Under the pieces are notes generated by a model that saw only the letters and a list, made by a program, of their open reading frames with translations, was not told the origin of the DNA and searched no databases. The position numbers and the translations under genes were made by a program. Shown here one piece after another: positions 30,194 to 30,302 of a DNA stretch of 64,000 nt; positions within the stretch are counted from its first letter, which is position 1; the number at the start of each line of letters is the position of its first letter. The stretch is from a virus (taxonomy: Duplodnaviria; Caudoviricetes): the IMG/VR virus record IMGVR_UViG_3300028888_000002; one strand, 5' to 3'.

Positions 30194-30302
30194 TGGACAC
30201 CCTCCGATTTGAACGGAGCGTTCCGTAATACTTTCGCAGCGTCCTATCCTTTCTTTTGGCGTTTTGCGATACCTTACGGCAGGTCCCGTAGCCACGGTGC
30301 CC
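30194..30302 (-). ncRNA. tRNA-like RNA with Ala identity (G3.U70, A73) and a long hairpin in place of the anticodon arm
   Basis: GGGCACC/GGTGTCC acceptor, CTCCG-TTCAAAT-CGGAG T-arm, CCGTAA/TTACGG helix extended by TCGCA/TGCGA. Confidence 0.75.

What the first reader, a model, noticed from the sequence alone, without database searches (positions are those of the whole stretch)
30194..30302. 109-nt mini-tmRNA-like RNA with alanine identity inside the tRNA operon
Seen: fully paired acceptor GGGCACC/GGTGTCC with G3.U70 and A73, and a canonical T-arm. There is no clear D-stem, and the anticodon arm is replaced by a ~57-nt irregular hairpin (CCGTAA/TTACGG, TCGCA/TGCGA, purine-rich apical loop). It shares its 3' trailer (TCCACGAAA(A)CATTTT) with the adjacent tRNA-Ala. 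Known: G3.U70, a stemless D-loop and a long P2 helix describe the tRNA-like domain of tmRNA. Inference: an alanylatable RNA with no mRNA domain. It could be a ribosome-rescue/SmpB decoy, a nuclease decoy, or an intron-containing tRNA, and would be induced with the tRNAs when ribosomes stall.
Basis: partly seen in the sequence, partly recalled or inferred. Interest (0 to 1): 0.72.

Follow-up and report, generated by a model that had tools for sequence, protein, structure and literature searches.

The report
Alanine-type tRNA-like RNA in phage operon
A rumen phage's tRNA operon carries a conserved 109-base RNA that has the alanine-tRNA acceptor end and elbow but a long hairpin where the anticodon arm should be; it is real and new, it fails the tests for tmRNA, and what it does is unknown.

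Summary
On the minus strand at 30302-30194, between tRNA-Ala and tRNA-Asn, lies a 109-nt tRNA-shaped RNA ("X"). It has a 7-bp acceptor stem with G3·U70 and A73, a 5-bp T-arm, a GG-containing D region and a 57-nt irregular hairpin in the anticodon-arm position.

ARAGORN and all Rfam models miss it. It is not chance or decay. The same element sits at the same place in 9 further independent contigs, as three alleles. The most divergent allele has 12 changes. Four of them form two compensatory pairs and the other eight all lie in unpaired positions.

X is accessory. Twelve related arrays have only a 7-14 nt spacer there, and near-identical phages carry an HNH-like endonuclease gene instead.

The tmRNA reading is not supported:
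- No tmRNA model hit.
- The tmRNA D-loop signature (present in 99/99 sampled tmRNAs) is absent.
- There is no valid resume-codon context.
- No SmpB was found in the relatives.

An intron-bearing tRNA is also rejected.

Best reading: a non-decoding RNA built on a tRNA scaffold, cut out with the tRNAs and probably chargeable with alanine, whose conserved arm is the working part. Its function is untested.

The parts
30194..30302 (-). X: the 109-nt tRNA-like RNA (X position p = window 30303 - p)
   Evidence: Sequence. Three alleles, all 28 pairs kept. CM R1 scores 135.7-141 bits on the copies and nothing else.
30296..30302 (-). Acceptor 5' strand GGGCACC (G3 at 30300)
   Evidence: Pairs with 30195-30201. 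The 7:102 pair changes C-G to U-A in L014.
30194..30201 (-). Acceptor 3' strand GGUGUCC (U70 equivalent at 30197) plus discriminator A73 (30194). No CCA is encoded.
   Evidence: All tRNAs of the array likewise lack an encoded CCA.
30278..30295 (-). D region GUGGCUACGGGACCUGCC: optional 3-bp GGC/GCC stem and a GGG-containing loop
   Evidence: One loop change (C15U) in L014.
30223..30279 (-). 57-nt arm in the anticodon-arm position: three helices, internal loops GGUA/ARAGUA and AAA/C, a bulged A, and a 13-nt apical loop with conserved AAAGG
   Evidence: Positions 16-44 and 60-82 are invariant apart from A70G. The 45:59 pair changes C-G to U-A in L014.
30202..30218 (-). T-arm CUCCG-UUCAAAU-CGGAG (loop UCCGAAU in L014)
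30303..30312 (-). 5' spacer GAAACAUUUU between tRNA-Ala and X (with 30313, CGAAACAUUUU)
   Evidence: The same motif is the Ala-Asn spacer in L004, which lacks X.
30181..30193 (-). 3' spacer CGAAAACAUUUUU between X and Y
30107..30180 (-). Y: a second aberrant tRNA-like gene, found only in the window-type lineage. It has G3·U70, C73, a C6·C67 mismatch and an 8-nt anticodon loop.
   Evidence: Weak tRNA-Sec match of 17.8 bits. ARAGORN at lowered threshold calls it 'tRNA-??? (cacg)'. Absent from L006 and L014.
30313..30386 (-). tRNA-Ala(UGC) immediately upstream, with an A4·C69 mismatch and C33
30560..30765 (-). Promoter (30765-30737), 28-codon leader ORF (30713-30627) and terminator-like hairpin (30588-30569) that head the transcription unit containing X
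   Evidence: No promoter or terminator was predicted between tRNA-Phe and tRNA-Ser.

Best explanation
X is a non-decoding small RNA built on a tRNA scaffold.

Proposed steps, each marked as shown or inferred:
1. It is transcribed as part of the attenuator-headed polycistronic tRNA precursor. (Layout shown; transcription only weakly supported.)
2. It is cut out like its neighbours, by RNase P at G1 and by 3' trimming plus CCA addition after A73. (Inferred from the intact acceptor/T/D core and from spacers identical to those around the true tRNAs.)
3. Its G3·U70/A73 acceptor end makes it a likely AlaRS substrate. (Inferred from the established alanine identity rules; not tested.)
4. It has no anticodon loop, and its arm is about twice the length of a tRNA anticodon arm, so it cannot read codons.
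5. The most conserved part is the lower and middle arm with its internal loops. I therefore take the arm to be the working surface, which presents a binding site to a protein or RNA partner. The tRNA body supplies processing, stability and possibly an aminoacyl end.

X is an accessory element: it is present in some closely related phages and absent or replaced in others.
For: Anatomy and co-linearity with the tRNAs.

Detectors: no tRNA or tmRNA detector calls it, yet all 28 pairs are kept in three alleles.

Substitution pattern: L014 differs at 12 of 109 positions. Two changes are double, compensatory changes (7:102 and 45:59). The other eight all fall in unpaired columns. If changes fell at random, about (53/109)^8 = 0.003 would give that outcome (my arithmetic).

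Conservation relative to neighbours: X is 99% identical between the window and L006, where flanking genes are 70-86% identical and tRNA-Ala, Asn and Tyr are 89%, 84% and 58%.

Distribution: identical copies occur in assemblies from sheep, goat, cattle and pig gut samples; 11 studies hold the stretch.

Expression: contigs from sheep and bovine metatranscriptome libraries cover X and bridge Phe-Glu-Ala into X.

Accessory nature.

Precedent: small RNAs of unknown role are made from a phage tRNA region, T4 RNAC and RNAD (PMC3014915, PMC9697503).
Against: - No experiment or read-level data show a discrete processed RNA, CCA addition or charging. The RNA-library contigs are low depth (about 2-4) and may be DNA carry-over or precursor.
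- Only three alleles exist, so covariation statistics are weak: 62 of 500 shuffles reach two double changes.
- Position 8 is G, not the near-universal U8.
- The L014 allele has a predicted alternative fold 2.8-3.6 kcal/mol better than the tRNA-like forms.
- No partner for the arm was found: no antisense target in the window and no similarity to E. coli or phage records.
- X is dispensable, so the selective benefit may be small.
Confidence: 0.5

Rival explanations
1. Mimic of the tmRNA tRNA-like domain. Ala-X would bind SmpB and EF-Tu, enter stalled ribosomes and accept the nascent chain, acting as a tag-less rescuer or as a decoy for trans-translation.
For: - Generic topology matches a tmRNA tRNA-like domain: G3·U70, A73, a T-arm, a long helix leaving from the anticodon-arm position, and a 4-nt linker before the T-stem.
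- The D-stem is optional.
- The operon is headed by a leader peptide that should respond to ribosome stalling.
- A more distant relative (G003) encodes a full 356-nt tmRNA, so ribosome rescue matters to phages of this group.
Against: - No tmRNA, alpha/beta/cyano-tmRNA or mt-tmRNA model reports X at E <= 10.
- The D-loop signature U(C/U)GAC is absent from X. It was found in 99/99 sampled tmRNAs (GG..U(C/U)GAC in 96/99) and in the phage tmRNA.
- The only GCA...UAG frame has U, not A, at -4 (rule from PMC2481249). It lies inside a helix and is truncated to 3 codons in L014.
- There are no pseudoknots.
- No SmpB was found in three complete relatives.
- Complete relatives lacking X also lack a tmRNA, so X does not stand in for one.
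Confidence: 0.1
2. Uncleavable look-alike of tRNA-Ala that titrates a host factor acting on tRNA bodies or acceptor ends. Candidates are a tRNA-directed defence nuclease or nucleotidyltransferase, or AlaRS itself. In this reading the tRNA body, not the arm, is the working part.
For: - X is an accessory element in a variable hot-spot, as is typical of counter-defence cargo.
- Three alanine-type acceptor ends (tRNA-Ala, X, Y) lie side by side in the window lineage.
- The anticodon stem-loop of tRNA-Ala varies strikingly among relatives, and the window allele has C33.
- Relatives carry a PNKP-like gene near the array.
Against: - Known anticodon nucleases recognise the anticodon loop, which X lacks (general knowledge).
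- This reading does not explain why the arm is the most conserved part.
- No candidate host system is identified, because the host is unknown.
Confidence: 0.15
3. Functionless passenger: a degenerate tRNA-derived sequence carried into the Ala-Asn slot by recombination or homing-endonuclease traffic and not yet lost.
For: - X is dispensable. Twelve arrays lack it, and L013/L015 have an HNH-like ORF instead, with a co-conversion tract that starts inside tRNA-Ala.
- It has a narrow distribution, with no copy in IMG/VR, GTDB genomes or GenBank phages.
- With only three alleles, covariation is statistically weak.
Against: - All eight single changes avoid paired positions, and two pairs change on both sides.
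- X is better conserved than the true tRNAs beside it between the window and L006.
- The acceptor stem, T-arm and G3·U70 are intact in all alleles.
Confidence: 0.13
4. A tRNA gene interrupted by an intron or insertion that is spliced out to give a normal tRNA.
For: The insertion sits where tRNA introns usually lie.
Against: - ARAGORN in intron mode finds nothing, and none of 689 internal deletions of X yields an ARAGORN tRNA call.
- No 5-bp stem plus 7-nt U33 loop can be assembled from the ends of the arm.
- 57 nt is far too short for a group I intron (general knowledge).
- The apical stem shows a compensatory change, so the 'insert' itself is under selection.
Confidence: 0.02

Closest known systems
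tRNA-like domain of tmRNA (Rfam RF00023 and the two-piece and mitochondrial tmRNA families)
   Same: Alanine-type acceptor stem (G3·U70, A73), a T-arm, a GG-containing D region, a long helix in place of the anticodon arm, and no anticodon.
   Different: - No model hit.
- Lacks the GG-N-U-U-Y-GAC D-loop signature.
- Can form a D-stem.
- No pseudoknots.
- No tag reading frame with a valid resume context.
- 109 nt, against 345-429 nt in the tmRNAs sampled here.
Phage T4 RNAC and RNAD (small RNAs from the T4 tRNA region)
   Same: Small non-tRNA RNAs encoded among phage tRNA genes, with roles still unknown (PMC3014915, PMC9697503).
   Different: No sequence similarity to any GenBank phage record, T4 included. 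Whether RNAC or RNAD have a G3·U70 acceptor end was not checked here.
Pseudo-tRNA 'tRNA-Other' of Bacillus cereus
   Same: A tRNA-shaped RNA that does not act in translation but affects cell physiology (PMC3399842).
   Different: It is chromosomal rather than phage-borne, keeps a cloverleaf of ordinary size, and does not have alanine identity (from the paper's abstract and my own knowledge).
Engineered 'tRNA scaffold' RNAs, in which the anticodon arm is replaced by a cargo RNA (Ponchon and Dardel, from my own knowledge; not looked up here)
   Same: The same architecture: acceptor, D and T parts kept for processing and stability, with the anticodon arm swapped for a structured insert.
   Different: That is a laboratory design. 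X is natural, conserved, and carries alanine identity elements.

Membership tests
tmRNA (RF00023 and clan relatives) | Alanine acceptor stem: G3·U70 with an A73 discriminator | tested here: met
   GGGCACC/GGUGUCC + A, invariant in three alleles except the compensated 7:102 pair.
tmRNA (RF00023 and clan relatives) | Stemless D-loop with the conserved GG-N-UU(C/U)GAC signature | tested here: not met
   U(C/U)GAC lies within the first 26 nt in 99/99 tmRNAs taken from GTDB genomes and in the G003 phage tmRNA. X has GGCUACGGGAC and can form a GGC/GCC stem.
tmRNA (RF00023 and clan relatives) | mRNA-like domain: a resume codon preceded by A at -4, and an in-frame stop | tested here: not met
   The only candidate frame, GCA AAA CGC CAA AAG AAA GGA UAG, has U at -4, lies partly in a helix, and becomes GCA AAA CGC UAG in L014.
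tmRNA (RF00023 and clan relatives) | Pseudoknots and a match to the covariance model | tested here: not met
   No tmRNA-clan hit at E <= 10 in 861-nt and 213-nt searches. The same model finds the 356-nt tmRNA of relative G003 at 143.8 bits.
tmRNA (RF00023 and clan relatives) | Binding by SmpB and entry into stalled ribosomes | not testable with these tools
   No RNA-protein prediction is available. No SmpB gene in three complete relatives.
tRNA (RF00005) | Cloverleaf with a 5-bp anticodon stem and a 7-nt loop | tested here: not met
   ARAGORN and Rfam miss X while calling the 6 neighbouring tRNAs. Intron mode and 689 internal deletions also fail.
tRNA (RF00005) | Acceptor stem, T-arm with a U-U/C-C-R-A loop, and a D-loop with GG (the elbow) | tested here: met
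   Position 8 is G rather than U.
Phage tRNA-operon small RNAs (T4 RNAC/RNAD type) | Encoded within, and co-transcribed with, a phage tRNA gene cluster | tested here: met
   X lies between Ala and Asn with one upstream promoter and terminator and no internal signals. Transcription itself is only weakly supported.
Phage tRNA-operon small RNAs (T4 RNAC/RNAD type) | Sequence relationship to T4 RNAC/RNAD | tested here: not met
   blastn of X against 50,697 phage records gives only 25-27-nt chance matches, none in T4-like phages.
AlaRS substrates (alanine identity set) | Aminoacylation with alanine | not testable with these tools
   The identity elements are present in the sequence. Charging needs an enzyme assay.

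The most novel reading that the evidence does not exclude
X is charged with alanine and used off the normal decoding path. It might be a miniature, tag-less ribosome-rescue RNA that works with host SmpB, or a dedicated alanyl donor or AlaRS sink that the phage switches on, together with its tRNAs, when ribosomes stall on the leader peptide.
Probability: 0.1. Interest if true: 0.88.

Novelty: new variant of a known kind. Interest (0 to 1): 0.5.

Why it matters
Phage tRNA clusters are usually read as codon-supply or anti-nuclease devices. X shows that they can also carry conserved RNAs that only look like tRNAs.

X combines the minimal alanine identity set with a cargo arm. In effect it is a natural version of the laboratory 'tRNA scaffold'.

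If X is charged in vivo, it would be a rare aminoacylated RNA outside tRNA and tmRNA, and a handle on how phages interfere with translation quality control or tRNA-directed defence. If it is not charged, it still gives a compact, stable RNA chassis and a new RNA family that annotation pipelines miss.

Tried and rejected
1. Exact or degenerate pattern scans for X found nothing. Scans covered IMG/VR and one genome per GTDB species. blastn against GenBank phages and E. coli genomes also found no relative. The metagenome scan gave one true copy (L006) and one chance match in a GC-rich bacterial gene (L005).

2. CM R1 found no further copy in the window, in about 40 loci or in the complete relatives G001-G003. 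One 12.9-bit hit at 46125-46222 lies inside an ORF and is chance.

3. Tag-ORF idea. A GCA...UAG frame in the arm resembles the E. coli resume region. I rejected it because -4 is U, the frame is base-paired, and L014 truncates it.

4. 5S rRNA loop-E look-alike. GGUA opposite ARAGUA, and a 10-nt identity to E. coli 5S that I recalled from memory. The loop-E register would break both flanking Watson-Crick helices, so I dropped it. It was not verified with a tool.

5. K-turn and sarcin-ricin readings of the internal loop do not fit the consensus (by inspection).

6. Antisense target of the apical loop: 4 matches with up to 2 mismatches against 2.7 expected, one of them X itself.

7. Origin from the neighbouring tRNA-Ala. 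The core is only about 58% identical. tRNA-Ala alleles score slightly best but not convincingly.

8. Intron reading.

9. RNA libraries. Low-depth contigs over X exist in metatranscriptomes. Contigs cannot show ends, strand or CCA, and DNA carry-over is possible. A single-contig G105U variant at depth 2.8 was ignored.

10. An nhmmer scoring of X against a tmRNA 5'-end profile failed to run. The motif count was used instead.

Full report
**Context**

The window is part of a large phage genome. It encodes a family A DNA polymerase with a UDG-like domain, a gp32-like SSB, a UvsX-like recombinase and a clamp-loader ATPase. No whole genome is held for it. Its closest public relatives are about 215-kb IMG/VR phages. 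The stretch is found in sheep, goat, cattle and pig gut metagenomes from 11 studies.

All genes around the finding are on the minus strand. ARAGORN and Rfam agree on six tRNAs in one array: Phe 30550-30475, Glu 30463-30390, Ala(UGC) 30386-30313, Asn 30099-30025, Tyr and Ser. They leave an uncalled 213-nt gap between Ala and Asn.

**The observation**

The gap holds two tRNA-shaped elements separated by array-type spacers: X (30302-30194, the finding) and Y (30180-30107).

X reads, 5' to 3':
- GGGCACC (acceptor 5' strand)
- GU
- GGC-UACGGGACCU-GCC (D region)
- G
- a 57-nt hairpin
- AACG
- CUCCG-UUCAAAU-CGGAG (T-arm)
- GGUGUCC (acceptor 3' strand)
- A (discriminator)

The hairpin has helices CCGUAA/UUACGG, UCGCA/UGCGA and CGCC/GG(A)CG, internal loops GGUA/AAAGUA and AAA/C, and a 13-nt purine-rich loop.

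Two points need qualifying. First, a 3-bp D-stem is possible and is energetically equivalent to extending the long helix by two pairs. Second, the 'shared trailer' is the general spacer motif of this array and of relatives that lack X.

**Is it real?**

The single-sequence folding energy is unremarkable (z = -1.38), but true tRNAs here do no better. The decisive evidence is comparative.

I anchored on the 93-aa gene just downstream of the array and on a pattern scan, and collected about 40 related arrays. What occupies the slot after tRNA-Ala:

| State | Contigs |
|---|---|
| X + Y | window, L007-L010, L012, L032, L033 (X identical in all) |
| X alone | L006, L014 |
| 7-14-nt Ala-Asn spacer only | 12 arrays, including complete genomes G001 and G003 |
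| 265-aa zinc-finger, HNH-like ORF between Ala and Asn | L013, L015 |
| HNH-type ORF replacing Ala-Asn | L002, L042-L044 |
| Ala directly followed by Ser | L025-L029 |

Allele L006 differs from the window at one loop position (A70G). In the same comparison the neighbouring tRNA-Ala, Asn and Tyr are 89%, 84% and 58% identical, and flanking genes 70-86%.

Allele L014 differs at 12 positions. C7-G102 becomes U-A and C45-G59 becomes U-A. The other eight changes all fall in unpaired columns, and no pair is broken. With only three alleles the shuffle control is weak (62/500). Slid-partner controls drop from 100% paired to 34-46% with no double changes. Eight of eight single changes avoiding 56 paired positions has a probability of about 0.003 if placement were random (my arithmetic).

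X is therefore a selectively maintained structured RNA, not a decaying tRNA copy. Its tRNA-like core is only about 58% identical to any tRNA-Ala allele.

**Transcription unit**

A strong promoter (30765-30737) is followed by a 28-codon ORF, MNKNYANNFYFEAEASFAEAYFAYSQSW, and a terminator-like hairpin (30588-30569), all ahead of tRNA-Phe. The next promoter follows tRNA-Ser, and nothing is predicted in between. X should therefore be made with the tRNAs.

Contigs from sheep and bovine metatranscriptome libraries cover X and bridge Phe-Glu-Ala into X. Depth is low, and contigs cannot show RNA ends or exclude DNA.

**Testing the tmRNA reading**

- No member of the tRNA/tmRNA clan, including the two-piece and mitochondrial tmRNA models, reports X at E <= 10, even in a 213-nt search.
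- The same tmRNA model finds a canonical 356-nt tmRNA (143.8 bits, tag AAPVAMAA) in the more distant relative G003.
- I pulled 100 tmRNAs from diverse bacterial genomes, selecting them by a 3'-end pattern so that the 5' end was unbiased. The D-loop motif U(C/U)GAC is in 99/99 standard ones, and GG..U(C/U)GAC in 96/99. X lacks it.
- The arm contains a frame GCA AAA CGC CAA AAG AAA GGA UAG, which looked tempting. However, the nearly invariant A four bases before the resume codon (PMC2481249) is U here, the codon is in a helix, and L014 reads GCA AAA CGC UAG.
- No SmpB gene is present in G001-G003.
- G001 and G002 lack both X and a tmRNA.

X thus shares with the tmRNA tRNA-like domain only what any alanine-type tRNA body with a substituted arm would share. 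I do not file it as tmRNA. A functional mimicry of that domain remains possible at roughly 10%.

**Other readings**

The intron reading fails. ARAGORN intron mode and 689 internal deletions give no tRNA, and the apical stem itself covaries.

A passenger reading is weakened by the substitution pattern but not excluded. X is clearly dispensable. L013 and L014 are identical through tRNA-Glu and the first 20 nt of tRNA-Ala. They then differ over the rest of tRNA-Ala, where L013 has the endonuclease ORF in place of X. They are 97% identical again from tRNA-Asn onward. This is a classic homing co-conversion tract.

**Most likely mechanism**

The intact acceptor/T/D core and the tRNA-type spacers predict RNase P and 3'-end/CCA maturation. 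G3·U70/A73 predicts recognition by AlaRS (established identity rules). The missing anticodon loop and the double-length arm preclude decoding.

The strongest conservation lies in the lower and middle arm: positions 16-44 and 60-82 are invariant apart from A70G. I therefore read X as a natural tRNA-scaffold RNA whose arm binds an unknown partner. The tRNA body supplies maturation, stability and perhaps an alanyl end.

I could find no partner. There is no antisense target and no similarity to known RNAs.

The closest precedent by context is T4 RNAC/RNAD, small RNAs from the T4 tRNA region whose roles are still unknown (PMC3014915, PMC9697503).

**Verdict**

X is a new, narrowly distributed, accessory tRNA-like RNA with alanine-type identity elements. 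It is not a tmRNA, not an intron-bearing tRNA, and not a decayed duplicate. Its function is unknown.

Noticed in passing
window 30107-30180 (-): Y is a second aberrant tRNA-like gene right after X. Its acceptor stem is GGGAACU/ACUUUCC with G3·U70 and a C6·C67 mismatch, its discriminator is C73, and its T-loop is UCCGACU. Its anticodon arm has an 8-nt loop, AUCACGGU. ARAGORN at lowered threshold calls it 'tRNA-??? (cacg)', that is, a four-base anticodon. It is present only in the window-type lineage, and all copies are identical. It could be a quadruplet-reading or a degenerate tRNA.
   Followed up: partly
window 30560-30765 (-): Promoter, 28-codon leader ORF MNKNYANNFYFEAEASFAEAYFAYSQSW and terminator lie directly upstream of tRNA-Phe. 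The peptide is made almost entirely of N, Y, A, F, E and S, the six amino acids of the operon's tRNAs. The leader is conserved in L001, L004, L006 and L041. It looks like a leader-peptide attenuator for a tRNA operon.
   Followed up: partly
L013:1305-2145, L015, L002:2923-3720, L042, L043: HNH-like or zinc-finger ORFs of about 265 aa occupy the same slot in close relatives. L013 and L014 differ only by a tract that starts inside tRNA-Ala and swaps X for the ORF. This is the signature of intron-less homing with co-conversion.
   Followed up: partly
L046:1501-1856 (record G003, 54831-55188): A 135-kb distant relative that shares the attenuator and tRNA-Ala encodes a canonical tmRNA (143.8 bits, tag AAPVAMAA). 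It is followed by the same CGAA trailer as the tRNAs.
   Followed up: partly
window 30313-30386 (-) and tRNA-Ala of relatives: The window's tRNA-Ala has C33 (loop CCUGCAA) and an A4·C69 mismatch. All other alleles have U33. The anticodon stem varies by compensatory changes among relatives. L025-L029 and L037 carry a different tRNA-Ala whose acceptor stem starts GGGC.../...GUCC, as X does.
   Followed up: partly
window 52400-52830 (-): An ORF-free stretch of about 430 nt has its own promoter-like site and a strong terminator (GGGCGGG...CCCGCCC-UUUUU). It contains a T-arm-like hairpin, GCUAG-UCCGAUU-CUAGC. No Rfam family matches at E <= 10, tmRNA and RNase P included.
   Followed up: partly
window about 6173-6245, 10354-10423, 12546-12638, 24336-24435, 27115-27216, 29156-29264, 34934-35049, 38027-38118, 41039-41138, 45609-45720, 52298-52378: An intergenic element of about 80-100 nt is repeated at least 11 times. 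It carries a TTGACA-N17-TATATT-type promoter and an AAGGAAA ribosome-binding site, and it is also conserved in relatives.
   Followed up: no
L041:960-1035: One contig has a chimeric gene: a tRNA-Glu 5' part fused to a tRNA-Ser 3' part, with everything between deleted. This is either a recombinant between T-arms or an assembly artefact.
   Followed up: no
window tRNA array; L014 allele of X: Several T-loops read UCCGA (C at position 55) instead of UUCGA. This applies to Asn, Tyr, Ser, Y and the L014 allele of X. The others read UUCAA, and none has UUCGA.
   Followed up: no
L025:3544-4764, L171:4530-4712: IS605 OrfB/TnpB (Cas12f-like) genes lie 1-2 kb downstream of the tRNA array in some relatives. 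PNKP-like (HAD_PNKP) and HD-domain genes lie nearby in others.
   Followed up: no
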